From a virus: a stretch of 64,000 nt of DNA. A model generated the notes under the pieces. That model was not told the DNA's origin, searched no databases, and saw only the letters and a program-made list of their open reading frames with translations. Made by a program: the position numbers and the translations under genes. Below, in pieces: positions 693 to 16,662 of the stretch. Where the stretch lies: IMG/VR virus record IMGVR_UViG_3300030108_005139, positions 1 through 64,000 of that record; one strand, given 5' to 3'. Each line of letters starts with the position of its first letter. Within the stretch, counting starts at the first letter, position 1.

Positions 693-1512
693 CTGATTCT
701 ATCTCCTCAACGAGTTTTTGAATCCTTAGAATTCTTTCAAGAACTTCCTCATTAATATTTTCTTTCTTATATCCATCGATTAAAGAAAGCACCTTCTTGG
801 TGGACTCAACCATTGAAAGATCCGCACTGATTTCTTCCATAGTTAGAGATTGTTCTAGTTTCTCCTTGAGTCTTCCTATTTCCTCATTTAGGTATACCTT
901 CAAGCCAACACCGTTGTCAGCAAATGAATAAATGTATTGTGTCAACAAATCTCTCTGCTCTTTTATAAGATCGCTGTAAGTATCATTGAATTTGCTTATA
1001 AAAGTGTTAAAAGTTAATTTATCGATTGGCTTCATTTTTTCTTTTACAACCTCTTCCTTAGAAGTCATATCTTTAATAATTTGCCTTTCCAACATAACCC
1101 TTTTCTTAACAGTCAATTCATCATTAAAAATTTGTGACAATGTTGCTAAATCTTTATAGTTTGGCACAAAGTTGGAAAAGACACTCTTGGTTAATTCTTT
1201 ATTGACCTTAGATATTACCTCGCTCTGCTCATCATATACTTGTTGATTCTTGAAACCTCTTGCATAGACAGTCTTAGCTTCATAAAGAATCCTTTCAGCA
1301 GTATCGTAGTCCAAGCCCCTGCTTTCTAAGACATCTTTATAAAGTTGCAATTCTTTTCCGAGAAGTGAGTCTTTTTTAAAATGTTCTTTTAAAATTGAAA
1401 GGATATGTTTTTTCTTACTGTCATTATCGTTGACAACGTTTTTAGTTAATTCTTTAACCAACGTTTCATATAAAAACGCCGTATTTCTTTTTTTATTATG
1501 CCTCAGTTTCAT
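685..1512 (-). CDS. helical hypothetical protein, probable head assembly role
   Basis: 275 aa, overlaps the portal stop; function inferred from position only. Confidence 0.7.
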   Translation of the reverse strand: MKLRHNKKRNTAFLYETLVKELTKNVVNDNDSKKKHILSILKEHFKKDSLLGKELQLYKDVLESRGLDYDTAERILYEAKTVYARGFKNQQVYDEQSEVISKVNKELTKSVFSNFVPNYKDLATLSQIFNDELTVKKRVMLERQIIKDMTSKEEVVKEKMKPIDKLTFNTFISKFNDTYSDLIKEQRDLLTQYIYSFADNGVGLKVYLNEEIGRLKEKLEQSLTMEEISADLSMVESTKKVLSLIDGYKKENINEEVLERILRIQKLVEEIESDG

Positions 1513-3424
1513 TATTCTTATTCTCCAATTCAGATATTAATCCCCTCACTTCATTGTTTATTTCCAACAATAAATCCTCTTCGTCCTTATAATTAGTTTG
1601 CTTTTCCTCTGTAATTCCATTAGCTAAACTTTTAAGAGGATCATATCCTGGAAAAAGTTTTCTATTCGTAGCAAATTCGGGAGTATGGGTTCTTCTCATA
1701 TTTACTGTTCTTCGACCAGCGCCGTGCTTATTGGACTTAACAGGATAATATATTTTGCCTTTTGCGCCTGGGGTTACATAGCCATCATCTCTTTTACCTG
1801 GTGGTGTTGCCAATAGATCTGGTGTCTCGGCTGGGGCATCGGGAGGTGTCTCAGCTGGGGTATCAGGGGGCGCTCCCTCATCTCCCGGCAAGTCCGTTGG
1901 TATATCCCCGGCTTCGCCACCTGTTAAGCCTGGTGTGTCAAGGCCAAGAGCGTCACCTCCAGCCATTTCTGCTTCAGCGACGGCATCAAGAGCCGTTAGG
2001 AACTTGCGGTCTGAAAAGATCTCTCTTTGGTTGCGTACAAATTCCTCTTCTGATAAATCAAAAATATTCTTTGCAATCCAGCGGCGGCTAAAGTATCCCT
2101 CCGTAGCTGACGCGGCGATATCAAATTTTGTTTTCCAATGCTCCAGTTCTTGAAGTTCTGCTATTTTTGAAGGATTGTTCAACTTAAGCTTGAAAGAAAT
2201 TAAGTCTCTATTTCTATATCCAAGAGAATAAAGATGTACAATTCCAATTTTCTCAAGTTCAGAAATAACAACTCTCTGCAATCTTTGAATTGTTCTCGCG
2301 AAACGAATATCCTTTTGAGCAAGAGTTGTTTTGTCCTCTTCTGCTCCTTCTCCACGAGAGAGATAAGATTGTGGAATCTTGAGAGCAGAAAAAAGCTTGT
2401 CTCTCATATATTTGATATCATCGATATCGCCTGTGTATGATCCACCAGCTAAAGTTTCAATCCGAGATGAGTTACCACCACGAACAGGAATGAAATAATC
2501 CTCCTCAACAGAAAGTGGGTTGTATCTCAAGTCAACACGACCAGTATCTTGATCAACCACTTGGTTCCTCTTCATTTGCGTCATAACTTTCTGCATATAT
2601 TGTTCCACATCTTGCGGCGGAACATTGCCAGTATCAATATAAAACACACGACGCTCAGGAGAACGAACAATACGATAGGCCATAACGGCATCTTCTAAAA
2701 GAGTTAACTGACGCCAAATACGACGGGCAGGCTCTAGGACAGACGTGCCATAAGGAGCGAACTTATCGTTTCCAAGAATTCTAAAGTGTGCAATTTGCCA
2801 GTTTTCAAACGTCATCCCGCCTTGATTCCATTGATACTGAACGTAGTTGGGGTTTGTTTGATCTTCTCCTTCCACTCTCTCTATTTCATTAAAAGGCAAA
2901 CCTATGACATTTTTTACCCCCAACTCCTCATCAATATCAATATACAGAAACATATCTCCATATTTACACATTGTTCGACACCAACCAAAAAGGTTGAAAT
3001 TTATATTCATAATATTGTTGAACAAAGAATGGAGGACAGTTTTTATTTCTTCGTTTGGGCAATCAATAGATATGAGCGGCTGCAAATCAGATGAGGTTGT
3101 CATCTCATCTGCGTAGATATCTAAAGCAGAGGCAATCTCGGGTGTATATTCCATTTGATCAAAATCGGCATATCTTTCAACGCGATTTTGAGAACCAATA
3201 ATATTTGATGATAGGTTTTGAAATGGACTATATGAAGCTTTTTTATACTGCTGACCGCTTAAAGATTTAAAAGTTTTGGCAAATTTATCAAGCTGTGTGC
3301 GGCGATACTTTCGTATTGTTTGTGCTCGATAATCAATAATTGGACCAGAAAAGATTCTAGTCAGCCTTTTAAATAAGTCTGAATTTGGATTCTTAGGGTT
3401 CTTTTTATTTATTTTTGGTGCCAT
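1496..3424 (-). CDS. portal protein (T4 gp20-like)
   Basis: Motifs MEYTPEIASALDIYADE, IAHFR, LEDAVMAYRIVRSPERRVFYIDTGN, EDYFIPVRG; adjacent to terminase. Confidence 0.95.
   Translation of the reverse strand: MAPKINKKNPKNPNSDLFKRLTRIFSGPIIDYRAQTIRKYRRTQLDKFAKTFKSLSGQQYKKASYSPFQNLSSNIIGSQNRVERYADFDQMEYTPEIASALDIYADEMTTSSDLQPLISIDCPNEEIKTVLHSLFNNIMNINFNLFGWCRTMCKYGDMFLYIDIDEELGVKNVIGLPFNEIERVEGEDQTNPNYVQYQWNQGGMTFENWQIAHFRILGNDKFAPYGTSVLEPARRIWRQLTLLEDAVMAYRIVRSPERRVFYIDTGNVPPQDVEQYMQKVMTQMKRNQVVDQDTGRVDLRYNPLSVEEDYFIPVRGGNSSRIETLAGGSYTGDIDDIKYMRDKLFSALKIPQSYLSRGEGAEEDKTTLAQKDIRFARTIQRLQRVVISELEKIGIVHLYSLGYRNRDLISFKLKLNNPSKIAELQELEHWKTKFDIAASATEGYFSRRWIAKNIFDLSEEEFVRNQREIFSDRKFLTALDAVAEAEMAGGDALGLDTPGLTGGEAGDIPTDLPGDEGAPPDTPAETPPDAPAETPDLLATPPGKRDDGYVTPGAKGKIYYPVKSNKHGAGRRTVNMRRTHTPEFATNRKLFPGYDPLKSLANGITEEKQTNYKDEEDLLLEINNEVRGLISELENKNNETEA
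1821..1868. repeat. 2 x 24-bp imperfect tandem repeat in portal C-terminal linker
   Basis: ggtgtctcggctggggcatcggga / ggtgtctcagctggggtatcaggg, encoding PDTPAETP-PDAPAETP. Confidence 0.8.
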
Positions 3425-3429
3425 ATTTT

Positions 3430-5004
3430 TTAACCTTTAAATAGCCAAGCGTGTTCTTGTCTCTGTTTGATTTGTTTTGATTTATTAATCGCCTTATGTC
3501 CCGTCATACCAGGTATCGTAGTATTCATAACTATTGAACTTTTTGCAAAAGAATTCATTAATGCTTTTGTATATTCTATATCTTTTTTGTTTGCTGATAA
3601 TGCAGTATCCCTCACCCAACAAGCAATAGCTAGAGCCATCACTAGATCGTCATTATATCCTCGCATTGCCTCTGGCTTATTATTGTTCCAAACAAACGTC
3701 TTGATTTCATTGAGAAGGCGAGAAGAATATATACTAATTATGTTGTTTCTGATGAATTCCTCTAATTTAGCCAAAATCATTGGCCTTGTTTTACTGGAAG
3801 TTGTGAAACCTGGCACACAATCCGTCCTTCCCTCGGCTACATATTGCTCCACATATTCGTGTGTAGACTTAATAGAATGATACACATTAGCATAACCTAG
3901 TTCTTTTATTTTCTCAATAACCGTATACCCAATGTTATTGTTTTCCACAACAAGCATACAGTCACCGTATTGTTTGCCAATATCCATCAAAAAAGGAGCA
4001 TAGTGGTCAGGAGTCATCTTACCTTGGTACTCAGCAACAATCTCCATTGTGTTGAGGTTTATAACGTGAAAAACAGAATAATCTTTTCCATCCCCTCGGG
4101 CAACGTCAGCAGATATTAAATAAGAACAAGAAGGGTCGTACTGTTGCCACATCCAAAGACCACGATCAAAACCAGTTCTATATTCTGGCTCTTTTATATT
4201 GTTTTCTATCTTAGCGATATCATTAGGATGAATTACTGTCTCACCAGACATATTAAAGTTGCACTCAAACTCTTGTGCAATCTGTCGTCTGGACATATTC
4301 TTTGTTTCTTTCTCAAACCATTCCTGATCTCGGTCAGGGTGTAGATCCCACATCAACCTAACGTGATGAAAATCGTTTGCTTGCAATTCTGCATCAATAT
4401 AAGTTTGATGAAACCAGTTACCAACACCATTGGGTGTTGATACAACAATGCAGCGACCACCAGTTGAAATTGTAGGATAAAGACCAGTCCACAATTCATC
4501 AAGACCCTCAACGTGAGCGGCCTCATCAATAACCAACAACGACAACGCTTCTGAACGACCGGCATCACCAGAAGTCGAAGCGGCTTTAATTTGTGATCCG
4601 TTTGTCAATTCAAATGAACTTCTGTTATCAACAGAGATACTAGCTATTCTAACCCATTCTGGCAAAGTTTTAATGATTGCCTTGACTTTTTTTACTAAAT
4701 TTGATGCTGTCTGAAACTTTGTTGCCATAACAAGAATATTCTTGTCACGATGAAAAAGCATCAACCAAGACACATAGGCAGCAGTAATAGTAGAGATACC
4801 CATTTGCCGAGCCTTCAATACAATGTTGAAGCGGTAATCGTTGAAGTCTTCCAGCAATTCTTGTTGAAATTCGTATGTTTTGAAAGGAACTAGGCCGTGG
4901 ATGGGGTGGGAGATTTTAGCGTAGTTATTAATAAAGTAATAAGGGTCTTTGCCAGATTTAACGATCTCCTTGATCAGTTCCTTTTTGGATAATTGATAGC
5001 TCAT
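3430..5004 (-). CDS. terL: terminase large subunit (T4 gp17-like)
   Basis: Walker A KARQMGIST, Walker B LLVIDEAAH, STPNG, nuclease motifs ADVARGDGKDYS and DDLVMALA. Confidence 0.96.
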   Translation of the reverse strand: MSYQLSKKELIKEIVKSGKDPYYFINNYAKISHPIHGLVPFKTYEFQQELLEDFNDYRFNIVLKARQMGISTITAAYVSWLMLFHRDKNILVMATKFQTASNLVKKVKAIIKTLPEWVRIASISVDNRSSFELTNGSQIKAASTSGDAGRSEALSLLVIDEAAHVEGLDELWTGLYPTISTGGRCIVVSTPNGVGNWFHQTYIDAELQANDFHHVRLMWDLHPDRDQEWFEKETKNMSRRQIAQEFECNFNMSGETVIHPNDIAKIENNIKEPEYRTGFDRGLWMWQQYDPSCSYLISADVARGDGKDYSVFHVINLNTMEIVAEYQGKMTPDHYAPFLMDIGKQYGDCMLVVENNNIGYTVIEKIKELGYANVYHSIKSTHEYVEQYVAEGRTDCVPGFTTSSKTRPMILAKLEEFIRNNIISIYSSRLLNEIKTFVWNNNKPEAMRGYNDDLVMALAIACWVRDTALSANKKDIEYTKALMNSFAKSSIVMNTTIPGMTGHKAINKSKQIKQRQEHAWLFKG

Positions 5005-5931: not shown

Positions 5932-6960
5932 TCAAACCTCGGCTTTATTTAAATGATTCCATATCTTTTGATTTATATCCTTACAAATATATTTACCTTT
6001 CAACCCATACTCTTCTTGCTTTTGAATCCAAGCATCTTCTAAGTCTTTCGGGATATACCCACAATGGTCTTCACCAATCTTAACGCTCTTAGTATAATCA
6101 AGTATCTTTAAATAAGCACCAATAACATTTTCATATTCCTCTGGTGAAGCATTAGTTCTTAACCATCTGTGAAGCGCAGGGTAATTGTTGGTTGTCTTTC
6201 TAGTCAACTCAGCACCATATAAACTGCCAAGCAACTTCAAAGTCTCATCTGGCGAACTGGCAACCAACTCTCTAGTTCCTCTTTTTCTAATTCCAGAGAT
6301 GTGCTCGTAAGTATAATCTTTAATTAAGAACATTGCCAACATAAGTTGTGTTCTGTGCAGACCTTTTAGAAATTGATCATCTGCTGATGGGGGATCTGAA
6401 TGATAAGCAAACTCTAGCCAGTCTGCATTGCCAACCATCCAATCAATCTGGATACCAATATCTTGTTGTTCTCCTTCTTCATTGAACTGAGGGAATAACG
6501 AGAACATCGTGCCAGGTCCAATCTTCTTTATATTAGAAATGATCATATCTGACTCGTTGTTGAAATACTTGGCAAGCTCTGTTAAGAAAGCACGCCAGCC
6601 AATCTCAGCGTCAGTTCTGGTTCTCGCTCTTCGCTTGAATAAGTCAAAGGTGCTTTGCCAAGCATCAGGATCAATGTTCCATTCTTTTAATCCTTCGGGA
6701 GTTACCACACCATCTTTAAAAAAACTTGTTGCATCCATTGCCAAATCGATGTCGCCAGATATTGACTTTTTACCGACAGAACCTAAATAACGAAATTCTG
6801 CAAAGACATCTTTTTTAAGAGGGAATAATTTATTTAACTCTTCACGATATTTATCAAGAGTTGGTTTTATATATTCCAGAGGAATGCTGGCAGCCTTTCC
6901 ATCAAAAACATTTCCGCCCTCGTCAAGAAACTTTCGCCAGTTTTCAAATATTAATTTCAT
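5932..6960 (-). CDS. Pol-beta superfamily nucleotidyltransferase with class-A leader
   Basis: LGSVGKKSISGDIDL (GS..DxD) and a third Asp in IQIDWM; begins MKLIFENWRKFLDE. Confidence 0.75.
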   Translation of the reverse strand: MKLIFENWRKFLDEGGNVFDGKAASIPLEYIKPTLDKYREELNKLFPLKKDVFAEFRYLGSVGKKSISGDIDLAMDATSFFKDGVVTPEGLKEWNIDPDAWQSTFDLFKRRARTRTDAEIGWRAFLTELAKYFNNESDMIISNIKKIGPGTMFSLFPQFNEEGEQQDIGIQIDWMVGNADWLEFAYHSDPPSADDQFLKGLHRTQLMLAMFLIKDYTYEHISGIRKRGTRELVASSPDETLKLLGSLYGAELTRKTTNNYPALHRWLRTNASPEEYENVIGAYLKILDYTKSVKIGEDHCGYIPKDLEDAWIQKQEEYGLKGKYICKDINQKIWNHLNKAEV

Positions 6961-7406
6961 TTCTGTCCCCTAAAATAATCCACGAGTTCTTCTCTTGTTG
7001 GAACCTCTGGACTATTCAAAAACTCTTTATATAGCCACCCATCTGGATTTTGTTTTCTATTTTCGCTCATCCACTCATAAGAAACAGAACCAATATCGCT
7101 GGCTCTTTCTTTATTACATATATTACAAGCCCACGCCAAGTTCCAAAGATCTCCCTTCAGCATCCTTCGCGCTTTGCCATTGTTGCCAGCGGCTGATTGT
7201 GGTATGATGTGTTCAACTGAAATTATTCTATTTTCGGTTAGCCCGCACCAACAACAAGGTACCCCTTCGGTGGCCTGTTTCTTTATCCACCTTCCTACTG
7301 GTCTCTTCACATCTACTGGTAAAGCCTTGACCCAATCAACCCAGACCGATGCGATGCTTGTTTCTTCTTTCAAGTACTTTCGCCAGTTTTCAAATAGTAA
7401 TTTCAC
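6957..7406 (-). CDS. HNH endonuclease with class-A leader
   Basis: CCWCG...SVEHIIPQS...NLAWACNICN; begins MKLLFENWRKYLKE. Confidence 0.85.
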   Translation of the reverse strand: MKLLFENWRKYLKEETSIASVWVDWVKALPVDVKRPVGRWIKKQATEGVPCCWCGLTENRIISVEHIIPQSAAGNNGKARRMLKGDLWNLAWACNICNKERASDIGSVSYEWMSENRKQNPDGWLYKEFLNSPEVPTREELVDYFRGQK

Positions 7407-7768
7407 TTCTGCTTCCTATAAACCGGAATCTTTTTTATCCCTAAGCGCTTTGCTGCTTCCAATCTATGGTGTCCATCTAGCACATAAAAAAACGATTCAC
7501 TAGTTCCACTTTTTTCTGTTGGGGTGTAATCCTCTTGCCCTTTTAGTTTGTAGGTCACAACAGGCTTTTGATTACAAACTTCTATAGGGGGAAAATTACC
7601 AGAGTCAATTTGTTTCATTTTTTTTTGAATTACCTCTTCGCACTCTCTTGAGGGACATTCGTGCTCTTTACCGTGACCCAATTCTTCTGTTGGGATTAAT
7701 GTGGCAACATCAACGTAAAAAACCCGCTCATTTAAAAATCTTTTCCAGTTTTCAAATAGTAGTTTCAC
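7403..7768 (-). CDS. ParB/sulfiredoxin-like domain protein with class-A leader
   Basis: PPIEV...YVLDGHHRLEAAKRLGIKKIPV; begins MKLLFENWKRFLNE. Confidence 0.85.
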   Translation of the reverse strand: MKLLFENWKRFLNERVFYVDVATLIPTEELGHGKEHECPSRECEEVIQKKMKQIDSGNFPPIEVCNQKPVVTYKLKGQEDYTPTEKSGTSESFFYVLDGHHRLEAAKRLGIKKIPVYRKQK

Positions 7769-8985
7769 TTCTTGTTGGTCTTTTTAACAGAGTTGATATA
7801 TTTTCTGTAAACGCCAGCAGCGGACTTCTTTCCGGCTGCTTTGGCTCTTTGTTCCATTGCAACGGCTGCTTGAATTTTGTGAGCGTGTGAACGGCCTGAC
7901 CTTTTAATCTTATTAACACTTGCTTCTGCATCCTTTGCGGTTGCAAACTTCAATCCGTGAATTGTCCCTTTTGGATCTTCATCGGTGTAAAGATCACTGT
8001 GTTTTTTAGACTTGGCGGGTTGTCCTTTTTTGCGAGGTATTCTCGGGTTTTTCTTTTCATTGGTTCTCTCACCTTTTTTAGATCTAGTTTTTTGGTTTTT
8101 GCAGAATTGCTTCATTGTAAAACCTTTTGGATTAGCGCATTTGTTTTTTCTTTTAGATCGCTCTTTTTCTGACCACTTTTCTTGAAGTGTGGTGTCACCA
8201 ATCTTTATTGTAATACCGGAGGGTTGCCCACCATTTAGCGACATCATACGATCATAGGCGTTTGTTCTTACGTCTGACAGTCTTCCCAAATACCCATTTC
8301 TTCTCAAGACTTTAAATGCAAGGTTTTCTGGAGAAAACTCACCTCCTTGTTCCAGTCCGCACTTACGAAAGTCTCTGATTCTATCTCGTAACCGAATCGC
8401 CTCTTCGCGGGCTTCTTCGTACCTTCCGGCAGCAAATACGTCCTCGACATCTTCTATCAAGTCCATAAGCGCTTGTGCTTTTTTACCAACTAGAGGCTCA
8501 TCGATTGTAACCTCTCTATAAGTTGGCTTTGTTTGCCACTCATTATACACTAGGGAATATATACCGGTTGACATATGTGGCTCACCAGTGTCTTGAACAT
8601 AAAGCTCCACTTCGTGTGGGCCAATCTTAATATTATGAACCTTATTCCAATTAGCCCGAACACTTCTAAAATAGTCTTTTACTAAGTCCATAGGAGCATT
8701 GATATCATTAAAATTTACAAGAATGTGTAAATCAATGTCAGACTTTTCTGACCAGTTGTAGTTGGCTGCAGAGCCAGTGATAATTATATCAACAATTCCA
8801 GCATCTTTTAAATCTAAACCACTCCAAAAATCATTGACAATATCGTGCAACCTACTTGCTACTTCTGGTCGTAGTTTTTCACCATCCCAAACTTTTGGAT
8901 TAAGTTCTTTCTTTAATTCAAAGGTTGAGAAATCAAAGTCTAATTCTTCTAGGTATTGTCGCCAATTTTCAAAAAATAATTTCAT
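7765..8985 (-). CDS. nucleotidyltransferase with basic C-terminal modules and class-A leader
   Basis: ITGSAANYNWSEKSDIDLHILV and VELYVQ; basic tail modules follow LQE and TNE; begins MKLFFENWRQYLEE. Confidence 0.8.
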   Translation of the reverse strand: MKLFFENWRQYLEELDFDFSTFELKKELNPKVWDGEKLRPEVASRLHDIVNDFWSGLDLKDAGIVDIIITGSAANYNWSEKSDIDLHILVNFNDINAPMDLVKDYFRSVRANWNKVHNIKIGPHEVELYVQDTGEPHMSTGIYSLVYNEWQTKPTYREVTIDEPLVGKKAQALMDLIEDVEDVFAAGRYEEAREEAIRLRDRIRDFRKCGLEQGGEFSPENLAFKVLRRNGYLGRLSDVRTNAYDRMMSLNGGQPSGITIKIGDTTLQEKWSEKERSKRKNKCANPKGFTMKQFCKNQKTRSKKGERTNEKKNPRIPRKKGQPAKSKKHSDLYTDEDPKGTIHGLKFATAKDAEASVNKIKRSGRSHAHKIQAAVAMEQRAKAAGKKSAAGVYRKYINSVKKTNKK

Positions 8986-9938
8986 TTCTTTAGTTCTTTT
9001 ATATTTGCCTGCAAACTGGTAATGTTTGCATCGGCTGCGTTGGCAGCATCTTTATCCATATTCTCCAAATAAAATCTATTAATATTATTGGACAATTGTT
9101 CAATTTGATCGTAGATGTCAAATAAAACTGTACCCAATCGTTCAAAGTAGTTATTTGTTATCTCTCTAAGTTGTGTTTTTGATCCAAAGCCTAGTGTGCC
9201 AATTAAGTGACCACCGTTCACAACGCAGGACATCTTAAGACCATCGCCGGTACCACAATCGGTTGCCTTTTGTTTACCTACATCACCAGCATCAAAATCA
9301 CCTGCCACCCCAAGCTCTGCACTGCCAACAGTAAACTTATAAAAATCAATTGATAAAACCTCTTGTTCTTTGTGTGATTTGTTTTTAATCGCAACCACGT
9401 ATGTCACTGGCTGCCCTTGTTCTCTGATTGATTCTATAAGTTTATCATAAGAGCCTCCCACATATTTTTCTCTTCCACCAAAGAGAAATTTAAGACTCCA
9501 TTTTTCTGCTTGCCCTGCGGCTTGAACTTCCACGTCAGCAATTTCACCCTCAACAGCGGGGATCATTTTTCCACCCAACATTGCAGAAAGTAGTGATTCA
9601 AATAGAAAACCACCAGTTTGTGGGTTGAAATCACTAATGACAGAGGCTAAGACCTCTAGAAACATTAAATTAGATAGAATCTCTGATACGTCTTTTTGTT
9701 GCTGACATTGTTCTTCGCAGTCAACAACAAAACTGTTTAATGAGTTAAGTTTTGCTACAAAGTCGTTTCCTGGAATTCTTGCTATAAAGTTTTCAACTAA
9801 CCTACGGTCTTCGCTATCGGGCTCACCCCACTGATCTGATATTCTATATCTGGGTAATTTAAGAGAATATTCTTTTGTTTTCTCGGTAGTTTCTGCCTCA
9901 ACGATAAACTTTCGCCAGTTTTCAAATAATGGTTTCAT
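8982..9938 (-). CDS. possible PD-(D/E)xK nuclease-like protein with class-A leader
   Basis: GFLFESLL...IADV...WSLKF pattern; begins MKPLFENWRKFIVE. Confidence 0.5.
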   Translation of the reverse strand: MKPLFENWRKFIVEAETTEKTKEYSLKLPRYRISDQWGEPDSEDRRLVENFIARIPGNDFVAKLNSLNSFVVDCEEQCQQQKDVSEILSNLMFLEVLASVISDFNPQTGGFLFESLLSAMLGGKMIPAVEGEIADVEVQAAGQAEKWSLKFLFGGREKYVGGSYDKLIESIREQGQPVTYVVAIKNKSHKEQEVLSIDFYKFTVGSAELGVAGDFDAGDVGKQKATDCGTGDGLKMSCVVNGGHLIGTLGFGSKTQLREITNNYFERLGTVLFDIYDQIEQLSNNINRFYLENMDKDAANAADANITSLQANIKELKK

Positions 9939-9959
9939 TTAATTACATTACTCCCTTTG

Positions 9960-9969
9960 TATAAATAGT
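9960..9969 (-). promoter_or_regulatory. candidate late promoter ACTATTTATA
   Basis: Intergenic, ~22 nt upstream of ATG 9938; motif recurs before other virion genes. Confidence 0.6.
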
Positions 9970-9990
9970 CGCATTTTTTAGTTGTAGAAA

Positions 9991-10416
9991 CTAAAAAGAA
10001 AGAATGGCTTTTTTGATTAAAGTAATCTCGTATGATTCAAAGACTGTCTTATAATCATCTATTTCTTTCATATCTACCCAAGCATATTCATCGTGTTCAA
10101 AACTTAACACGACCTCATCACCAGAAAACTTATTAGTGATGAAATGATATATCATCCCAAAACTATGCTTAGACCTTTGTAATAATAACTTTAGATCCTC
10201 TGGATCTACCGACAATCCACTTTCTTCCAAGGTTTCTCTAACTGCACCTTGTTTTGGTGTTTCACCATCTTCGACGTGACCACCAGGTGGACCCCAGTGG
10301 CGTGGCTTAAAACTAGCCCCTTCTCCTCTCAATAAGAGAAGGATCTTCCCGTCCTTGACAAGAATAACATTTGCTCCCCTGTTATTCTTTGACATCCCTA
10401 TCTTGATCCTTATCAT
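9991..10416 (-). CDS. NUDIX hydrolase
   Basis: NUDIX box GGHVEDGETPKQGAVRETLEESGL. Confidence 0.93.
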   Translation of the reverse strand: MIRIKIGMSKNNRGANVILVKDGKILLLLRGEGASFKPRHWGPPGGHVEDGETPKQGAVRETLEESGLSVDPEDLKLLLQRSKHSFGMIYHFITNKFSGDEVVLSFEHDEYAWVDMKEIDDYKTVFESYEITLIKKAILSF

Positions 10417-10862
10417 TTGATTTCGCTAACTGCAAACGCAATACCAATTGTCGCTGCAACGCCAATAATAATACCGCCAGCAAACCACCAGTGACTATAA
10501 TCTCCATTATCTGCCTCCAAGGCTATTTCTGTAAGCCTTTCTATCTCGTCGTCTTTAATCTCCATTATAGAGTTATATCTTTCTTGTAGTGCCTCCAAGC
10601 TTGCAACAGTGCTATCCAACGATAAATTACACATTGCTTGTTGTCGGTCTTCTGCGTATTGGATGCGAAGTTCGCACTCTGTTTGATTTGCTTCTTGTTC
10701 AGCGAGCATCTGTGCAACTGCTGCTGAGTTCAGGAGAGTTCCTGTAAATGGTGCGGCTTGTCCTTCTCTGATGTCTGTTATAACTGGCTCTTCGTCTTGT
10801 GCCCAGACAAGGGGTTGGAAGGCCAGTAAGCAGATTAGAAAAGGGATTAGTAGTCTCATCAT
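10413..10862 (-). CDS. membrane protein with signal peptide, coiled coil and C-terminal TM (possible spanin-type lysis protein)
   Basis: N-terminal MMRLLIPFLICLLAFQPLVWA-QD; C-terminal WWFAGGIIIGVAATIGIAFAV. Confidence 0.6.
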   Translation of the reverse strand: MMRLLIPFLICLLAFQPLVWAQDEEPVITDIREGQAAPFTGTLLNSAAVAQMLAEQEANQTECELRIQYAEDRQQAMCNLSLDSTVASLEALQERYNSIMEIKDDEIERLTEIALEADNGDYSHWWFAGGIIIGVAATIGIAFAVSEIK

Positions 10863-11440
10863 CTATTTCTTCCAACATATGCCTTTATTTTAGTTGGATT
10901 AAAAATAATCTCCCCTCCTTGGTCAATATTACTACCTTTTAAAAAAGCAGCAAAAACTCTATGCCGACCACCTAAAATATCAACAACCTTGTCACCTTCC
11001 ATTTTAAGTATAACTGGCTCGTGTTCACCCTTGCCAAGACCGGGCAATGTTTTAATAATTCGTTGTATTTTTTGTTGATACTGATCCATTGGAAAATTTG
11101 GATTTAAACCTAAATGTTTATCCATCAAAAACTTTCTCTCTTCGGCACTCAAATCTTCCCACTTTAAATCCAAAACAACTGGATTTTTAGTCCAGGTTAA
11201 ATCATAGCGGTCATATATTTCTTTGGCATATTCATCAGTTTTAAAAAACTTTTCTAAACCTATTTTATTTATATCATCTGTTCTATCAACAGCATAGTCT
11301 TTCACCCCCTCGTGCCCATACATATCATTAAATACAAGATCTGGCAAATGAGGGAATACTTTATTTTTGAGGGCTTTTTCAAAGCCTTTAAATCTTGACT
11401 CTATTAAAAAAAGCCTCCAATTTTGCATTACAAATTTCAT
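10859..11440 (-). CDS. ParB-like domain protein with variant class-A leader
   Basis: EPVIL...ILGGRHRVFAA...IKAYVG; begins MKFVMQNWRLFLIE. Confidence 0.6.
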   Translation of the reverse strand: MKFVMQNWRLFLIESRFKGFEKALKNKVFPHLPDLVFNDMYGHEGVKDYAVDRTDDINKIGLEKFFKTDEYAKEIYDRYDLTWTKNPVVLDLKWEDLSAEERKFLMDKHLGLNPNFPMDQYQQKIQRIIKTLPGLGKGEHEPVILKMEGDKVVDILGGRHRVFAAFLKGSNIDQGGEIIFNPTKIKAYVGRNR

Positions 11441-11453
11441 TTAGTAATCTCAT

Positions 11454-11720
11454 TTATTCTTCCATCGTTTCTGATGGGACAATCAGATAATCTCTAGCCT
11501 TGTTAAGATAGTCTGACGCCAAAGTCAACTTACTCATCCACCAAGAAGGAAGTTCTTCATCAGGACGACCCTCAAGGGCTTGCAGGATTTGTACTGCATC
11601 TTCAGTGGCTGTTTTTAGTTTCCTAATGGCTGACGGGACATCTGTGTGTCCGTCTTCGTTTATGTTTGCCTCAAGTTCTTCCTTGATAATTTGTTTGAGT
11701 TGTGTTTTTGTAATCTTCAT
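11454..11720 (-). CDS. small helical protein with class-B leader
   Basis: MKITKTQLKQIIKEEL followed by an LPSWWMSKLTLASDYL domain. Confidence 0.8.
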   Translation of the reverse strand: MKITKTQLKQIIKEELEANINEDGHTDVPSAIRKLKTATEDAVQILQALEGRPDEELPSWWMSKLTLASDYLNKARDYLIVPSETMEE

Positions 11721-11721
11721 T

Positions 11722-12225
11722 TTATTTTTCCTGCAACTTTGCCAACGTCCTCTCGTATGCTTGGATATATGCTACGCTTTTCGGGAGCATATTTGGATTA
11801 GAGCCTAACTCTATTTGGGCCTTTCTATCGGCCATTATTTTTTGGTCTTTGGGTTTGCCGTCTTTCGCATCTTGTACTCCCTGGAGTCCGGCTTTGTATG
11901 CTATTTCATATGAAGCCCTTTGTATCCAACGCTTACCGGGTTGCGCTGTCGGAGGGGCTGATTGTTCGCCTTTTATCGCATCTTGTATTGCCCGTTCTAT
12001 GTCTTTTTTTGTTTTTTCCGTCTCTTTCCTATAGTATTCCTGATCTTGCTTGTATTCCTCTGGGGTTTTCCTGCGATAAAATGGTTCTCCTCTTGTACTC
12101 CAGGATCTTCCAGTAGAGCCGTATTTGACCAGTTGATCGTCGCGGTATGTATCATATTCCTCTTCACTGAGAAGTTGTAGTTCCTCTAAGATAATCTGTT
12201 TGAGTTGTTGTTTTGTAATCTTCAT
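11722..12225 (-). CDS. hypothetical protein with class-B leader
   Basis: MKITKQQLKQIILEEL; AGGAG RBS. Confidence 0.8.
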   Translation of the reverse strand: MKITKQQLKQIILEELQLLSEEEYDTYRDDQLVKYGSTGRSWSTRGEPFYRRKTPEEYKQDQEYYRKETEKTKKDIERAIQDAIKGEQSAPPTAQPGKRWIQRASYEIAYKAGLQGVQDAKDGKPKDQKIMADRKAQIELGSNPNMLPKSVAYIQAYERTLAKLQEK

Positions 12226-12239
12226 ATTAATCTCCTATC

Positions 12240-12623
12240 CTAATCCACATCGCCCAGTCGAAGTTCCTCGTCATCGCCGAGATCAAACGCCGGTGTGGGT
12301 GAGTCTTTCGCTACCATATCACCAATATGATCCTTAATCTTAGATATCATACTGTAGGCATCAGCAGCCATTCGGTGAATTTCATTTAGAGCTTCTATTC
12401 TCCTCTCGACCTCGGACTCGGAGTCTCCACCATATAAATCAACTTGTTCTCCAGACTCCATTGAGTCTGGTTGGGTTATCTCCTCGATGTCCTGAAGATG
12501 TTTAGTGATTGTTTCAAGATCAGTGAGTAAGTTCTCGTCATCTCCTTTGTATTCCTCTTCCTCTAAGCTTCTTGCAAGTTCTTCCTTAATGATCTGTTTG
12601 AGTTGTGATTTCGTAATCTTCAT
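12240..12623 (-). CDS. acidic hypothetical protein with class-B leader
   Basis: Start placed at ATG 12623 (MKITKSQLKQIIKEEL) after an AGGAG RBS. Confidence 0.8.
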   Translation of the reverse strand: MKITKSQLKQIIKEELARSLEEEEYKGDDENLLTDLETITKHLQDIEEITQPDSMESGEQVDLYGGDSESEVERRIEALNEIHRMAADAYSMISKIKDHIGDMVAKDSPTPAFDLGDDEELRLGDVD

Positions 12624-12624
12624 T

Positions 12625-12888
12625 TTAATCTCCTTTCCTTGCAAGAGACTGATCATCGTGAATTATTTTATCAAGATCGGCTGCAAGGGGTGAGCCGACC
12701 CCTTGTGCGAGGCCATAATAATCTTCAATAGCTCGCATCATAACTTCGCGTTTGGCGTCATCGAGATTGGTTGGTTTTACAACTGTGAACTTCCCAACGG
12801 GCCTTTTTTCCCACTCAATGTCGCCTTCTTGGATTCTACCAAGTTCTTCTTTGATAATCTGTTTGAGTTGTGATTTCGTAATCTTCAT
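12625..12888 (-). CDS. small hypothetical protein with class-B leader
   Basis: MKITKSQLKQIIKEEL; GAGG RBS. Confidence 0.8.
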   Translation of the reverse strand: MKITKSQLKQIIKEELGRIQEGDIEWEKRPVGKFTVVKPTNLDDAKREVMMRAIEDYYGLAQGVGSPLAADLDKIIHDDQSLARKGD

Positions 12889-12889
12889 A

Positions 12890-13474
12890 TTATTTTCCTC
12901 TTTCGGCTTTGCTAATTTCTACAGCACCAAGTTGTGCTAGGGCTGCTTTTTTAGTTCTGTGTGGTTTTTTAGAAAGATGTTTGCCACTCTTTGAAGTTAC
13001 AAAATAACCACCCTTTACTTTTTTTATTTTCTCTTCTAGTTCTTCGTCTTTGCTTCCTTTTGCCTGCCATTCATATGACACCTTATCTTTTGATATCGGC
13101 CCGCCAGCAGCCCAAGTATAACAGGATCTTGCTGAGTGGCACTTGAAGTGGTGCATCCAACAATATCCTAAATAGCCCTCTTCATCCTCAATCGGTTCTG
13201 AAGTTGGACCAGGCATACATTCTAACATTCTTGGTGAGATATCAAAAGCAATACAGTTAGAACATTTTGATTTTTTTGCAACCTCTGGTTCTGTATTCCA
13301 GTGTTCTGCTGCTCTTTCCCAATACTCATCGTCAGCAAGATTAAGCGGACCATACTGAATATGCTCTGCTTTAATGGCTGCATTTCTGTTCTTTGTGTTA
13401 AGCTCCAGATCCTGTGTGGCATCGGGACACTCTAAACGTGCTTCTGTTTTTCCTATGATAATTTTAATTCCCAT
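12890..13474 (-). CDS. Cys/His-rich metal-binding protein with basic C-terminal module
   Basis: CSNC...YCWMHHFKCHSARSC; basic tail after LEE; begins MGIKIIIG. Confidence 0.7.
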   Translation of the reverse strand: MGIKIIIGKTEARLECPDATQDLELNTKNRNAAIKAEHIQYGPLNLADDEYWERAAEHWNTEPEVAKKSKCSNCIAFDISPRMLECMPGPTSEPIEDEEGYLGYCWMHHFKCHSARSCYTWAAGGPISKDKVSYEWQAKGSKDEELEEKIKKVKGGYFVTSKSGKHLSKKPHRTKKAALAQLGAVEISKAERGK

Positions 13475-16119
13475 TATTCTGGCCTCTCTCCACTTCGCGT
13501 GTATCTTTCCTCATCGGATTGTGGTCGTCTTGTAGGTTCTTCCTCTTGAGTTTCTTCACCTGAAGTCCTGTATCTTCTCAACGCTTGTCTAAGTTCTTGT
13601 TGTGCCTCAGATGGTGGAGAAGAAGGAAGTTCTTTATCTTCATATTTTTTAACGAACTCTCTGTCATCGTCAGTTACGTGCCAGTATTGGGCTCGCTTCA
13701 TATAACCCCTAATAGAACTTGCTCTACTTCTAAGATCCCAAATCTCCTGTGATTTTTCATTGTACGCCCTTACATCCTCTCGTCGGATTGGGTTTTCCTG
13801 AATGATTTCAAACATACCACGTATTAGTTTTTCAAGATTTTTTCTGTTTGTTACATCGGCCATCTCGTCGCGTGTTTTCTTTAGGTCAGCCTCAAAGACA
13901 ACCAATGGCACAAGAAACTCTTCAATCCTATATTCCATATCCTCTAGAGATACTAGACCTCCTTGGGTTCGTTCAGCACCTCGACCCTCGGAGGCTTGTA
14001 TTACCTGCAACCTTGCAGATTTTGTTGCAGAGTCTATTCCGTTGTAAATTGCATAACCCCTGTCTAGAAAACGTTGCTCAATTGTACCCATACTCCCAGC
14101 CGTCGTGCGATCTCTTGCAACTTCTCTTTCAGCCTCAGACGTTAAAAAATTATATAATGGGACTATATTTCTTGGAATCAAGCCGTTTACAACAATTGTT
14201 CCTTTCTTTAAGGCTCTTACATTATCAAGAGATGTTGCTTTTTCGTATTCCACGTCCTTTAGGTTGTTGATAAATCCAACAAGTTTTTTCATATACTCAT
14301 CGTTTTTGTACTGTGGATCTGTAGAGATCTTAATTATATGAGCGTAATACAATGTGGCATTTCTCATAACATCATAATTTAAAGCATCGTGGCCTGGATA
14401 TCTAAACTCCACATATTTACGATACGGTAAGTGTTTGATATTAAACCCCATTTGTTTTGGAGAGGTATATCGTGTAGAGACCTCAACAGCGTTTGAAAGT
14501 GCTTTCTTCACAGCATCAAAGTCTCTCTCTGTTAAATCTTTGATAACACTAGTCGTTTCTTTGTTGTCACCAGTGAGTTTCCAGATACCGGGCCTAACTT
14601 CTTGTGCTACTTCATTTTGAACAAGCGTTGCGATGTGATTGATAGCATCTTTTTTAATATCGCCTGCCCAGCCGCTATATCTTCTGCTTTCAAACCCTTT
14701 TGTTGCGAACTCGTGATTTAGGAAAAGCATTGCCTTCATTAAATCATAATCTTCAATTGGGTCATCATCTTCGTCCAAGATTCCAACATTGGTATGCAAG
14801 CCAGTTCGATTGTCCATAAAGAAATTGTCTTGATTCTCAAAATCTGTGAAGAATGTTTCAAGATATTCCAATGCCTCTTCTAATCCAGTAATATAGGCTG
14901 GGTAGTCCATTGAAAACTCAACGTGAGGATCGGGGGCCAACGAAGCATCTTCTTCAAGCTTAATATCACTAGCATATTTTGCCATAAAGTTAGGAAGATG
15001 TTCATACATAAGTTCGTGCATATCTTCTGCACCACCTTCGTCTTGGCCAGGATAAACATCGTAACGGTCGTAATATTCCTGCTCCAAATTATAGCCAAAA
15101 TTGCCTTCTAGGTAATCAACAGGGTCACTTTGAAATTCTTCGTATTCACTATTAGATTGCTCATCTATATACTCATCAATTGCATCATCAATCATTTTAG
15201 CCATTGCTGTTAAGTGCGGTGATTGACTATTACGAAACTGATATGCTATGTTCTGCATCGAACTAAGTGTGGCATATCTTTCGGGCTCCAAGAACGTGTC
15301 AGAAATGAACGTATCCATTTCATCCATAATCCCCATAATAAGCTCATCGGTTCCCAGGACTGCCTCATAAAAAGTATCTAAAGGAATCACCTTGTCAAAA
15401 TAACGAACTTTAGGAAACCCAGACCATTCAGCATCTAAATCAAAAACATATCTTTTAAATAATTCAACATTGTCAACTCCTGACAAAATGTGAATGAGTT
15501 GTTCTTCTTCATCTTCCGGGTCAAGTTCTAAGTTTCTTTGAATTGCTTTTGTTTCTGTGTACTCCTCTAGCTCTGTTTTAATTAATGGATGTTCCAACAA
15601 TAATTTTAAGAAACTGTTTGCTTCTCGGGAACCATCTTTAGAAATCATTTCTAGTGTTCGTTGATACAACTCGGGGGCACCATAATCTGCCAGACTAATA
15701 GCCATCTCAAACAATAAAATTAAGCGATCTCTACGTTCATTTTGTGCTTGTGGTGGGATTCCAATAACTTCTTGATCAACATATTTGTCTACAAGTCCCT
15801 CAGAATCAACAATGTAATCTTCTAAAAAATTATATTCATAGAATTCTGATAGGTCTCTCTCAATTACATTTTGATAAAAGTAGTCTTGATCCAGATAATT
15901 TCTGGCAAACTGCTCTAACGTTGGAAGGTCTCCTCTTCCAGCCGCACCGGCTGATTGATTAGAAAGCAATTCAATTTCATATGAAATAGTAAAGCGTTCG
16001 CCTGCTTCTAGAATAGCGGCTTTATCAGATTCCTTGAACTCTTGAATCAGTTCTTCTTCTAATATTTCTTCTTTTTCTTCGTTTCTAAATTTTCGCCAGT
16101 TTTCAAACAGTGATTTCAT
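13474..16119 (-). CDS. putative amidoligase (COOH-NH2 ligase type) with class-A leader
   Basis: SYEIEL, EDASL..VEF, TGLHTNVG, YVEFRYPG; ATG 16119 gives MKSLFENWRKFRNEE. Confidence 0.75.
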   Translation of the reverse strand: MKSLFENWRKFRNEEKEEILEEELIQEFKESDKAAILEAGERFTISYEIELLSNQSAGAAGRGDLPTLEQFARNYLDQDYFYQNVIERDLSEFYEYNFLEDYIVDSEGLVDKYVDQEVIGIPPQAQNERRDRLILLFEMAISLADYGAPELYQRTLEMISKDGSREANSFLKLLLEHPLIKTELEEYTETKAIQRNLELDPEDEEEQLIHILSGVDNVELFKRYVFDLDAEWSGFPKVRYFDKVIPLDTFYEAVLGTDELIMGIMDEMDTFISDTFLEPERYATLSSMQNIAYQFRNSQSPHLTAMAKMIDDAIDEYIDEQSNSEYEEFQSDPVDYLEGNFGYNLEQEYYDRYDVYPGQDEGGAEDMHELMYEHLPNFMAKYASDIKLEEDASLAPDPHVEFSMDYPAYITGLEEALEYLETFFTDFENQDNFFMDNRTGLHTNVGILDEDDDPIEDYDLMKAMLFLNHEFATKGFESRRYSGWAGDIKKDAINHIATLVQNEVAQEVRPGIWKLTGDNKETTSVIKDLTERDFDAVKKALSNAVEVSTRYTSPKQMGFNIKHLPYRKYVEFRYPGHDALNYDVMRNATLYYAHIIKISTDPQYKNDEYMKKLVGFINNLKDVEYEKATSLDNVRALKKGTIVVNGLIPRNIVPLYNFLTSEAEREVARDRTTAGSMGTIEQRFLDRGYAIYNGIDSATKSARLQVIQASEGRGAERTQGGLVSLEDMEYRIEEFLVPLVVFEADLKKTRDEMADVTNRKNLEKLIRGMFEIIQENPIRREDVRAYNEKSQEIWDLRSRASSIRGYMKRAQYWHVTDDDREFVKKYEDKELPSSPPSEAQQELRQALRRYRTSGEETQEEEPTRRPQSDEERYTRSGERPE

Positions 16120-16125
16120 TATCAA

Positions 16126-16662
16126 TCAATCCTTCTTTTTAGATTTTTTGCCCCACTTCTTACCTTTCCCTTTCGTTCCACAGGCTGCTGGGGTTGGCCG
16201 ACAAGCTGGATATTTTGAACGCTTTTCACCTTTTGATCTACCACAGGCTTTGCACTTCTTTCTTCCAGTCTTTGGATCCTTTCGGCAGGTATTGCAATCT
16301 ACCCAACCTTTACTTCCGCCTCCCCCAGCGCGGCTAAACCACCCGTGGAGCCCAGACTTTTTCTCTTTTGAGTAGTCAGTCCGTGCTTTCTTTTTTTTTT
16401 CGTCTAGACAAGCTTCAATTTCTTCATCGATAATACGATACAAGTCTTCCTTGACACCTTTCCAGATCTCTCCTCTGCGACATCTTACAACAGCGCCAGA
16501 GGCATATGCAGAAGGCCACACATCGTATTTGCGCTTGGCAATGCGTGTACAGCGATCATCTTTTTTCTTTTTAGCCTTCTTCTTCTTTTTCTTCTTTTTT
16601 TTCTTCTTCTCATCTAAGAAGGCTTCAATTTCTTCATCAATAATTTTTTCAATATTATCCAT
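16126..16662 (-). CDS. highly basic Cys-containing protein with poly-Lys tract
   Basis: Two IIDEEIEAxLDE motifs, each followed by a Lys run; PSAYASGAVVRC and YPACRP modules. Confidence 0.8.
   Translation of the reverse strand: MDNIEKIIDEEIEAFLDEKKKKKKKKKKKAKKKKDDRCTRIAKRKYDVWPSAYASGAVVRCRRGEIWKGVKEDLYRIIDEEIEACLDEKKKKARTDYSKEKKSGLHGWFSRAGGGGSKGWVDCNTCRKDPKTGRKKCKACGRSKGEKRSKYPACRPTPAACGTKGKGKKWGKKSKKKD

What the first reader, a model, noticed from the sequence alone, without database searches (positions are those of the whole stretch)
5932..11440. Class-A leader cargo looks like a nucleic-acid and nucleotide-acting enzyme arsenal
Seen: class-A leaders precede two Pol-beta nucleotidyltransferases, an HNH nuclease, two ParB/Srx-like domains and a PD-(D/E)xK-like protein, with a NUDIX gene embedded. 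Class-B leaders precede small proteins with no recognisable enzyme motif. Established: these folds recur in phage-host conflict systems (RNA repair, protein nucleotidylation, signal turnover). Inference: these are pre-made effectors for host takeover or counter-defence acting before phage transcription, and the two leader classes may mark different cargo types or docking sites.
Basis: partly seen in the sequence, partly recalled or inferred. Interest (0 to 1): 0.7.

Follow-up and report, generated by a model that had tools for sequence, protein, structure and literature searches.

The report
Leader-tagged enzyme cargo of T4-like phage
An uncultured marine T4-like phage puts the same 14-residue N-terminal tag, ending in the cutting motif of the T4-type head protease, on a row of nucleic-acid and nucleotide enzymes, so these are most likely loaded into the capsid and delivered with the DNA, though nobody has measured this.

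Summary
The observation largely holds. Seven minus-strand genes start with MKLxFENWRKFLxE (class A) and six with MKITKxQLKQIIKEEL (class B). Class-A cargo in 5932-11440: a Pol X-like nucleotidyltransferase (AF2 pLDDT 93.6; ASFV Pol X Z 9.5), a second Pol-beta-superfamily NTase, an HNH protein, a ParB/Srx-like protein, a probable PD-(D/E)xK protein (moderate support), and a protein whose ParB/Srx call rests on one motif. An untagged NUDIX gene is solid.

The leaders are common in IMG/VR: 68 distinct class-A proteins in 43 cargo clusters and 231 class-B proteins in 176 clusters.

In the Pol X-like family, 92 of 92 N-extended homologues have Glu just before the mature start and L/I/V/F/M two residues earlier, whatever the leader, and 20 begin exactly there. 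That fits the T4 gp21 site. A gp21-type protease is encoded in 5 of 5 complete relatives, but this truncated contig lacks one.

My best reading is a T4-like capsid-targeting propeptide system with enzyme cargo. Packaging, cleavage and any anti-defence role are inferred. Leader class correlates with cargo size and enzyme content but is not tied to cargo family.

The scan has noted similar leader-tagged enzyme cassettes on other DNA.

The parts
5932..6960 (-). 342-aa class-A protein. The leader is MKLIFENWRKFLDE (codons at 6919-6960). The mature part starts GGNVF and is a Pol X-like nucleotidyltransferase (palm plus thumb, with an extra C-terminal helical part).
   Evidence: AF2 pLDDT 93.6. Foldseek Pol beta/lambda E 7e-6. 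VIA ASFV Pol X Z 9.5 and Pol beta Z 9.3. G45 S46, D55, D57 and D158 are invariant. More than 1049 homologues.
6957..7406 (-). 149-aa class-A protein with a GTG start. HNH (beta-beta-alpha-Me) nuclease-like, with two CxxC pairs.
   Evidence: PHROG HNH families, best 1.7e-6. Pfam HNH_5 and HNH at about 1e-3, below the cut-off. It aligns to a Cas9 HNH domain on the motif only.
7403..7768 (-). 121-aa class-A protein with a GTG start. ParB/Srx-like, with a DGHHR motif.
   Evidence: Five PHROG ParB families, best 4.5e-6. Top PDB rows are SerK and SbnI on the motif, not significant. Atlas lead to ParB_N. A relative fuses this domain to NUDIX behind one leader (L041:5571-6704).
7765..8985 (-). 406-aa class-A protein. 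It has an N-terminal Pol-beta-superfamily nucleotidyltransferase domain (about residues 16-265) and a lysine-rich C-terminal module.
   Evidence: phrog_36119 at 7.5e-46. Pfam NTP_transf_2, Polbeta and MTPAP-like at about 1e-3. 23 of 30 homologues hit PF01909. Invariant GS..DxD..E. The C-terminal module is found alone in P0293.
8982..9938 (-). 318-aa class-A protein. Probable PD-(D/E)xK (restriction-endonuclease-like) core followed by a C-terminal helical hairpin.
   Evidence: AF2 pLDDT 75. Core matches are ThaI Z 6.2, PvuII Z 6.1, Hjc Z 5.8 and SwaI Z 5.7. Foldseek rows at E 0.04 or weaker are the same fold. E99, D123 and S133-x-K135 are invariant.
9991..10416 (-). 141-aa NUDIX hydrolase without a leader.
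   Evidence: Pfam NUDIX 2.1e-18, 67.1 bits against a 21.1-bit cut-off. The Nudix box is readable in the translation.
10859..11440 (-). 193-aa protein with a divergent class-A leader, MKFVMQNWRLFLIE. Orthologues carry the canonical leader. Fold unresolved; the GGRHR motif is ParB/Srx-like.
   Evidence: 12 homologues, aligned in A5. No Pfam, PHROG or PDB match. hhalign to the 121-aa protein aligns 16 columns only.
13474..16119 (-). 881-aa class-A protein outside the finding's range. It is conserved in relatives and its fold is unknown.
   Evidence: Leader seen. Homologue L030:553-3063. No Pfam or PHROG hit.
11454..12888 (-). Four class-B leader genes of 88, 167, 127 and 87 aa. Two further class-B genes lie at 17347-17616 and 21833-22108.
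   Evidence: No Pfam hit.
1496..5004 (-). T4-type portal (gp20, 1496-3424) and large terminase (3430-5004). They lie directly downstream of the leader genes and in the same orientation.
   Evidence: Pfam Portal_T4 4.5e-85. The terminase is 44% identical to that of Flavobacterium phage immuto.

Best explanation
The class-A leader (and probably class B) is a capsid-targeting propeptide of the kind phage T4 uses for its internal proteins.

Proposed sequence of events:
1. Late in infection, the roughly 14-residue N-terminal peptide docks the protein to the scaffolding core of the prohead.
2. A gp21-type (Peptidase_S77) prohead protease cuts after the Glu of a hydrophobic-x-Glu motif at residues 12-14.
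3. The mature protein stays in the head and leaves with the DNA at the next infection.

In this phage the class-A cargo is mostly enzymes that act on nucleic acids or nucleotides: a Pol X-like NTase, a second NTase, an HNH protein, a ParB/Srx-like protein and a probable PD-(D/E)xK protein. They would therefore be present in the host cell before any phage gene is expressed.

Shown here: the leaders, their modularity, the cut-site signature, the protease gene in relatives and most of the folds.

Inferred: docking, cleavage, packaging, ejection and what the enzymes do.
For: 1. 7 class-A and 6 class-B genes share only their first 14-16 residues.

2. The class-A motif was found in 80 IMG/VR stretches (the cap). 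87 of 108 motif matches lie at the start of an ORF. They give 68 distinct proteins in 43 unrelated cargo clusters. Class B gave at least 119 stretches and 231 proteins in 176 clusters.

3. Selection acts on the peptide, not the DNA. The conserved Arg uses all six Arg codons, and Asn and Lys each use both of theirs.

4. Cut-site signature: 60 of 68 class-A proteins have hydrophobic-x-Glu with the Glu at residue 13-17, and 42 have it at residue 14.

5. In the 342-aa family, 92 of 92 homologues with any N-terminal extension have Glu at P1 and L/I/V/F/M at P3 before the conserved GGNVF. The extensions are otherwise unrelated (class A, class B, MIKVKIKKSLAE, MRFxELLTE). Another 20 homologues start M-GGN, including the one in cultured phage immuto.

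6. A gp21-type protease (PF03420) is encoded in 5 of 5 complete 186-205 kb genomes that carry class-A leaders, and in immuto three genes after the portal. In immuto, small leader-bearing genes lie within the portal-protease-scaffold cluster.

7. The genes lie directly upstream of terminase and portal, in the same orientation, with overlapping stop and start codons. Class-B genes have a terminase homologue in the same stretch in 63 of 119 cases.

8. The T4 precedent is established: a 10-residue CTS on otherwise diverse internal proteins, removed by the prohead protease (PMC3012670, PMC9026906).
Against: - No virion proteomics exists for this lineage, so neither cleavage nor packaging has been observed.
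- The protease gene is not on this contig, which is cut two genes past the portal.
- The leader shares only the MK start and the hydrophobic-x-Glu end with the T4 CTS.
- Some cargo in relatives looks like ordinary cytoplasmic nucleotide metabolism: guanylate kinase, NT5C, HAD.
- The same enzymes also occur without a leader, so packaging is not needed for their activity.
- In complete genome G002 the class-A genes lie about 100 kb from the protease gene.
- The conserved Glu could partly belong to the folded domain.
- The class-B consensus is not clearly amphipathic.
Confidence: 0.6

Rival explanations
1. The leader does load proteins into the prohead, but the cargo serves the virion or the incoming genome itself rather than attacking host defences. 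Examples would be end processing, gap filling or repair of the packaged or entering DNA by the Pol X-like enzyme and the nucleases.
For: The best structural match of the 342-aa protein is a minimal repair polymerase, ASFV Pol X. The cargo set mixes a polymerase-like enzyme with nucleases. The family is very widespread and conserved, with more than 1049 homologues, which is unlike fast-evolving anti-defence genes.
Against: The overall cargo repertoire is hypervariable: 43 clusters among 68 class-A proteins and 176 among 231 class-B proteins. That is the pattern of conflict genes. Kinase, HD, NUDIX and 2H-type cargo in relatives do not fit DNA repair.
Confidence: 0.15
2. The leader is a cytoplasmic docking or sorting tag. 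It would assemble enzymes on a common phage scaffold such as a replication or nucleotide-metabolism complex, or time their turnover, and the proteins never enter the capsid.
For: Relatives tag guanylate kinase, NT5C, HAD and NUDIX enzymes that normally work in the cytoplasm. In G002 the tagged genes are far from the head genes. Class-A stretches rarely contain terminase or portal (9-11 of 80).
Against: This does not explain why every extension of the Pol X-like family ends in hydrophobic-x-Glu exactly at the mature start (92 of 92). It also does not explain why leaderless homologues begin there, or why leader-bearing genes sit inside the prohead-core cluster of immuto.
Confidence: 0.12
3. The shared N-terminus is the recognition sequence of a modifying enzyme (RiPP-like logic, for example a radical-SAM maturase), not a sorting signal.
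For: Three of five complete relatives encode a radical-SAM protein.
Against: There is no radical-SAM gene on this contig. Two of five complete relatives have none. In G002 it lies 35 kb or more from the leader genes. The S77 protease is present in 5 of 5.
Confidence: 0.04
4. The leader has no function of its own. It is a relic of cassette recombination or a translation-initiation region kept at the DNA or RNA level.
For: Genes are tightly packed with overlapping stop and start codons. Cargo modules are clearly shuffled.
Against: Synonymous codons vary freely while the residues stay fixed: six Arg codons, and both Asn and Lys codons. The peptide is kept across contigs whose cargo is unrelated. 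Orthologous cargo shows graded divergence of the leader at the protein level.
Confidence: 0.04

Closest known systems
Phage T4 internal proteins IPI, IPII and IPIII (and Alt), with the capsid targeting sequence removed by the gp21 prohead protease
   Same: A short N-terminal propeptide is shared by otherwise unrelated, fast-varying proteins and ends in a (L/I)-x-Glu site. The phage has a T4-type terminase and portal. A gp21-family protease is present in relatives. The genes lie close to the head genes.
   Different: The leader is 14-16 residues rather than 10, and is not alike in sequence beyond the MK start and hydrophobic-x-Glu end. There are two co-existing leader classes. Tagged genes number 13 on one fragment, against three IPs in T4. 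Many cargoes are large enzymes. Nothing has been shown experimentally.
Propeptide-processed ejection and inner-body proteins of phiKZ-like giant phages (201phi2-1, SPN3US)
   Same: Many head proteins are cut after Glu by a diverged gp21-like protease, and a large mass of proteins is delivered into the cell (PMC9026906).
   Different: Those propeptides are long and varied, not one short shared tag. The phage lineage and head architecture are different.
Encapsulin cargo-loading peptides
   Same: A short transferable peptide addresses diverse enzymes to the inside of an HK97-fold shell (from my own knowledge, not tested here).
   Different: Those peptides are usually C-terminal and are not removed. 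The shell is not a virus and nothing is injected.
Family X DNA polymerases, minimal form (ASFV Pol X)
   Same: The 342-aa cargo has the palm plus thumb arrangement. It carries the GS..DxD..D catalytic pattern.
   Different: No sequence-level match to any solved Pol X. It has an extra C-terminal helical part. The substrate is unknown, so it may be a terminal transferase or act on something other than DNA.

Membership tests
T4-type capsid-targeting-sequence (CTS) internal-protein system | One short N-terminal peptide shared by otherwise unrelated proteins of the phage | tested here: met
   7 class-A and 6 class-B genes in the window. 43 and 176 unrelated cargo clusters in IMG/VR.
T4-type capsid-targeting-sequence (CTS) internal-protein system | The peptide ends at a prohead-protease site, hydrophobic-x-Glu | tested here: met
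   Glu at residue 13-17 in 60 of 68 class-A proteins. P1 is Glu and P3 is L/I/V/F/M in 92 of 92 extended homologues of the 342-aa family. This is sequence evidence only.
T4-type capsid-targeting-sequence (CTS) internal-protein system | The phage encodes a gp21-family (Peptidase_S77) prohead protease | tested here: inconclusive
   Not found on this contig, which is 33% complete and cut two genes past the portal. Present in 5 of 5 complete leader-bearing relatives and in phage immuto.
T4-type capsid-targeting-sequence (CTS) internal-protein system | Leader sequence similar to the T4 CTS MKTYQEFIAE | tested here: not met
   Direct reading shows that only the MK start and the hydrophobic-x-Glu end are shared. 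The length is 14-16 residues against 10 (the T4 sequence is from my own knowledge).
T4-type capsid-targeting-sequence (CTS) internal-protein system | The proteins are present in the virion in processed form and are ejected | not testable with these tools
   The literature searches found no virion proteome for the nearest cultured relatives.
Pol-beta-superfamily nucleotidyltransferase (342 aa) | hG[GS] motif, DxD and a third carboxylate on the palm sheet, plus the fold itself | tested here: met
   Invariant G45 S46, D55, D57 and D158. Foldseek Pol beta E 7e-6. VIA family X polymerases Z 8.5-9.5, well above other NTases at 6.8 or lower.
Pol-beta-superfamily nucleotidyltransferase (406 aa, N-terminal domain) | Match to Pfam NTase models and the GS..DxD..acid motif | tested here: inconclusive
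   The window protein scores 19.4-20.1 bits against a cut-off of 21. 23 of 30 homologues hit PF01909 at E 0.01 or better. The motif is invariant. The motif is met; the curated cut-off is not reached.
HNH endonuclease (149 aa) | Beta-beta-alpha-Me motif with His, Asn and two CxxC zinc pairs | tested here: inconclusive
   The motif is readable. Seven PHROG HNH families, best 1.7e-6. Pfam 19.6 and 19.3 bits are below the cut-offs of 27.5 and 21.4.
ParB/Srx superfamily (121 aa and 193 aa) | The ParB/Srx fold with the (D/G)GxHR motif | tested here: inconclusive
   121 aa: five PHROG ParB families, best 4.5e-6, and motif-level alignments to SerK and SbnI. 193 aa: the motif only, with no family or structure match.
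PD-(D/E)xK nuclease fold (318 aa) | An alpha-beta-beta-beta-alpha-beta core with D and (D/E)xK on strands 2 and 3 | tested here: inconclusive
   The model has the core, with D123 on strand 2 and S133-x-K135 on strand 3, so Ser replaces the usual acid. Matches to ThaI, PvuII, Hjc and SwaI reach only Z 5.6-6.2.
NUDIX hydrolase (141 aa) | Nudix box and a Pfam match over the cut-off | tested here: met
   PF00293 at 67.1 bits against a 21.1-bit cut-off. A GX5EX7REUXEEXGU-type box is present in the translation.

The most novel reading that the evidence does not exclude
Two short, protease-removable N-terminal tags define a very large, fast-changing library of proteins in uncultured marine T4-like phages: at least 200 unrelated cargo families in the capped samples taken here. 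These phages would pre-load the proteins into their capsids and inject them. Cargo would include polymerase-like, nuclease, kinase, NUDIX and HD enzymes. The two tags would sort cargo by size or docking site. The injected protein set of a phage could then be read directly from its genome.
Probability: 0.4. Interest if true: 0.8.

Novelty: new variant of a known kind. Interest (0 to 1): 0.62.

Why it matters
Proteins that a phage carries in its head act before any phage gene is read. They are therefore prime candidates for first-strike counter-defence, but they are normally found only by virion proteomics of cultured phages.

If these leaders are loading signals, a simple sequence rule (tag plus hydrophobic-x-Glu) would flag hundreds of candidate injected proteins in uncultured ocean phages. 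It would also show that T4's three-protein system is a small case of a much larger strategy that includes full-size enzymes.

The Pol X-like family alone has more than a thousand members and no description that I could find.

The idea is directly testable in two cultured flavobacterial phages, immuto and Molly.

Tried and rejected
- Sequence-profile searches of the 342-aa, 318-aa and 193-aa families against PDB gave nothing meaningful.
- The wide VIA search with the 318-aa model was swamped by its C-terminal helical hairpin. Only the second look at Foldseek's own list was informative.
- hhalign of the 193-aa family against the 121-aa protein aligned 16 motif columns only. The Atlas gave weak ParB_N leads only.
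- tblastn of 20-residue leaders against GenBank phages found nothing. This is a sensitivity limit, not evidence of absence.
- No paper in the library holds the strings FENWRK or LKQIIKEE. No virion proteome was found for immuto, Mel-JY01 or Molly.
- The sigma-70 promoter and terminator scan was uninformative.
- The hydrophobic-moment test supports an amphipathic helix for class A only.
- I considered and set aside three other readings. A secretion signal does not fit, because the leader has no hydrophobic core. A DNA-level cassette relic is contradicted by codon variation. A radical-SAM recognition leader is contradicted by the lack of consistent linkage.
Full report
**What the window is.**
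The window is the first 64 kb of a 78.9-kb IMG/VR virus contig that CheckV rates 33% complete. Almost all genes run on the minus strand. The large terminase (3430-5004) is 44% identical to that of Flavobacterium phage vB_FspM_immuto and about 35% identical to those of T4-like cyanophages. The next gene is a T4 gp20-type portal (Pfam Portal_T4, 4.5e-85). This is therefore a fragment of an uncultured T4-superfamily myovirus. No nucleotide-level relative exists among 50,697 GenBank phage records.

**The leaders are real.**
- Seven minus-strand ORFs begin with MKLxFENWRKFLxE (class A). Their starts are at 6960, 7406, 7768, 8985, 9938, 11440 and 16119. Two use GTG starts that overlap the preceding stop codon.
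- Six begin with MKITKxQLKQIIKEEL (class B). Their starts are at 11720, 12225, 12623, 12888, 17616 and 22108.
- Beyond the leader the proteins are unrelated.

**The leaders are widespread.**
I estimate only a handful would be expected by chance.
- 87 of 108 motif matches lie at the start of an ORF. They give 68 distinct proteins in 43 cargo clusters.
- The class-B pattern gave at least 119 stretches, with 231 distinct proteins in 176 clusters.
- Selection is on the peptide. The conserved Arg is written with all six Arg codons, and Asn and Lys each with both of theirs.

**Cargo folds inside 5932-11440.**
- *342 aa.* With 31 homologues the model has pLDDT 93.6. Foldseek puts Pol beta and Pol lambda first (E 7e-6). 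An independent search puts family X polymerases at Z 8.5-9.5: ASFV Pol X at 164 of 176 residues, and the Pol beta palm plus thumb. Other nucleotidyltransferases score 6.8 or lower. G45 S46, D55, D57 and D158 are invariant. This is a Pol X-like enzyme. It belongs to a family of more than 1049 clusters that carries no Pfam annotation.
- *406 aa.* The N-terminal domain belongs to a very large family of 4686 representatives. The window protein sits just under the Pfam NTase cut-offs. However, 23 of 30 homologues hit PF01909, and GS..DxD..E is invariant.
- *149 aa.* It has the HNH pattern and hits seven PHROG HNH families.
- *121 aa.* It has DGHHR and hits five PHROG ParB families.
- *318 aa.* The model is of moderate quality (pLDDT 75). 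Its core reads helix, three strands, helix, strand. It carries invariant E99, D123 and S133-x-K135. Every match that covers the core is a restriction-endonuclease-fold protein, but only at Z 5.6-6.2.
- *193 aa.* It could not be placed, and only GGRHR recalls ParB/Srx.
- *141 aa.* The untagged protein is a clear NUDIX hydrolase.
- *149 aa at 10413-10862.* A second untagged gene encodes a signal-peptide and C-terminal-TM coiled-coil protein. It is conserved beside leader genes in at least 45 stretches and looks like a lysis (spanin-type) gene.

**What the leader is.** The strongest evidence comes from the Pol X-like family.
- Of 112 homologues with a recognisable mature start (GGNVF), 20 begin M-GGN.
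- The other 92 carry extensions of 3-75 residues of quite different kinds: class-A-like, class-B-like, MIKVKIKKSLAE, MRFxELLTE and others.
- In 92 of 92 the residue before GGN is Glu, and the residue two before that is L, I, V, F or M.
- The homologue in the cultured phage immuto starts exactly at that point.
- Within class A, 60 of 68 proteins have hydrophobic-x-Glu with the Glu at residue 13-17.

This is the site type of the T4 prohead protease, which removes the 10-residue capsid targeting sequence from T4's otherwise diverse internal proteins (PMC3012670, PMC9026906).

The protease family (PF03420) is not on this truncated contig. It is encoded in 5 of 5 complete, 186-205 kb genomes that carry class-A leaders. 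In immuto it lies three genes past the portal, and small leader-bearing genes sit inside the portal-protease-scaffold cluster.

In the window the tagged genes are translationally coupled and lie directly upstream of terminase and portal. Class-B genes have a terminase homologue in the same stretch in 63 of 119 cases.

**Leader class and cargo.**
- Class-A cargo is longer, with a median of 230 aa against 111 aa.
- Class-A cargo is more often a recognisable enzyme. Among the 68 class-A proteins, Pfam finds protein kinase, NT5C, guanylate kinase, NUDIX, HD, a 2H-type phosphodiesterase, NTase, HAD and HNH.
- Among the 100 longest class-B representatives, Pfam finds only YkuD, DUF6321, AAA_33 and FliG_C, once each.
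- The link is not strict. Two cargo families occur behind both leaders. The Pol X-like family occurs behind class A, class B, other leaders and none.
- One complete relative has six class-A genes and no class-B gene.
- Modules are shuffled. A relative fuses the ParB-like domain to NUDIX behind one leader. The basic C-terminal part of the 406-aa protein occurs alone behind a leader elsewhere.
- Maribacter phage Molly, which is cultured, has the NTase homologue two genes after a NUDIX gene. It carries a third leader type (..LKSLVES) shared by its neighbours.

**Reading.**
The most likely mechanism is T4-like: capsid targeting, trimming by the prohead protease, then delivery with the DNA. This phage applies it to enzymes. 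The leaders, the cut-site signature, the protease gene in relatives and most folds are shown. Docking, cleavage, packaging, ejection and the enzymes' targets are inferred.

I consider the rivals weaker, for the reasons given in their own sections. They are a role in genome maintenance, a cytoplasmic docking tag, a recognition leader for a modifying enzyme and a functionless cassette relic.

**Known or new.**
The principle is known from T4. I found no description of these two leaders or of the Pol X-like family in the paper library.

Earlier notes of this scan describe the same kind of leader-tagged enzyme cassette in other uncultured T4-like phages. The phenomenon is therefore recurrent, and this window is one clear example with a particularly sharp cut-site test. 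I class it as a new variant of a known kind.

Noticed in passing
window 10413-10862 (-): An untagged 149-aa protein with an N-terminal signal peptide, a coiled coil and a C-terminal TM helix. Homologues lie beside leader genes in at least 45 related stretches. It looks like a spanin-type lysis gene embedded among the cargo genes.
   Followed up: partly
window 7765-8220 (-), C-terminal part of the 406-aa protein: A lysine-rich module of about 150 residues follows an LQE junction. It recurs on its own directly behind a leader in another protein (P0293, residues 18-146, 78% identical). This fits the idea that some tagged genes are polyproteins cut at internal hydrophobic-x-Glu sites.
   Followed up: partly
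L041:5571-6704 (-): A 378-aa relative joins a class-A leader, a ParB/Srx-like domain (52% identical to the window's 121-aa protein) and a NUDIX domain in one protein. This suggests that the ParB-like and NUDIX genes of the window work together.
   Followed up: partly
window 16126-16662 (-): A 178-aa ORF with a run of 11 lysines. It contains two copies of a leader-like stretch (IIDEEIEA-F/C-LDEKKKK), one at the N-terminus and one internal. This may be a third leader type or a two-part polyprotein.
   Followed up: no
homologues of window 5932-6960 (P0055-P0107): Many homologues of the Pol X-like protein are 531-550 aa long. One fused form carries a cytidylyltransferase-like domain (PF01467). In phage immuto the gene sits next to a gene annotated as NadR-type NMN adenylyltransferase. 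This hints at a link to NAD or nucleotide chemistry.
   Followed up: no
L216 (Maribacter phage Molly_1, 13571-14368 and neighbours): A cultured flavobacterial phage has at least five neighbouring genes starting with a shared ..LK(S/T)L(V/I)E(S/T) peptide. These include the homologue of the window's 406-aa NTase, two genes after a NUDIX gene. This is a possible experimental model.
   Followed up: partly
L001 (phage immuto, 3278-5338, 14172-19915, 24339-26452): Immuto carries diverged versions of both leader classes (MKKSQLxxIIKEEL-like and MENxFDLKKFLVENKL-like). Some of these lie between the portal, protease and scaffold genes.
   Followed up: partly
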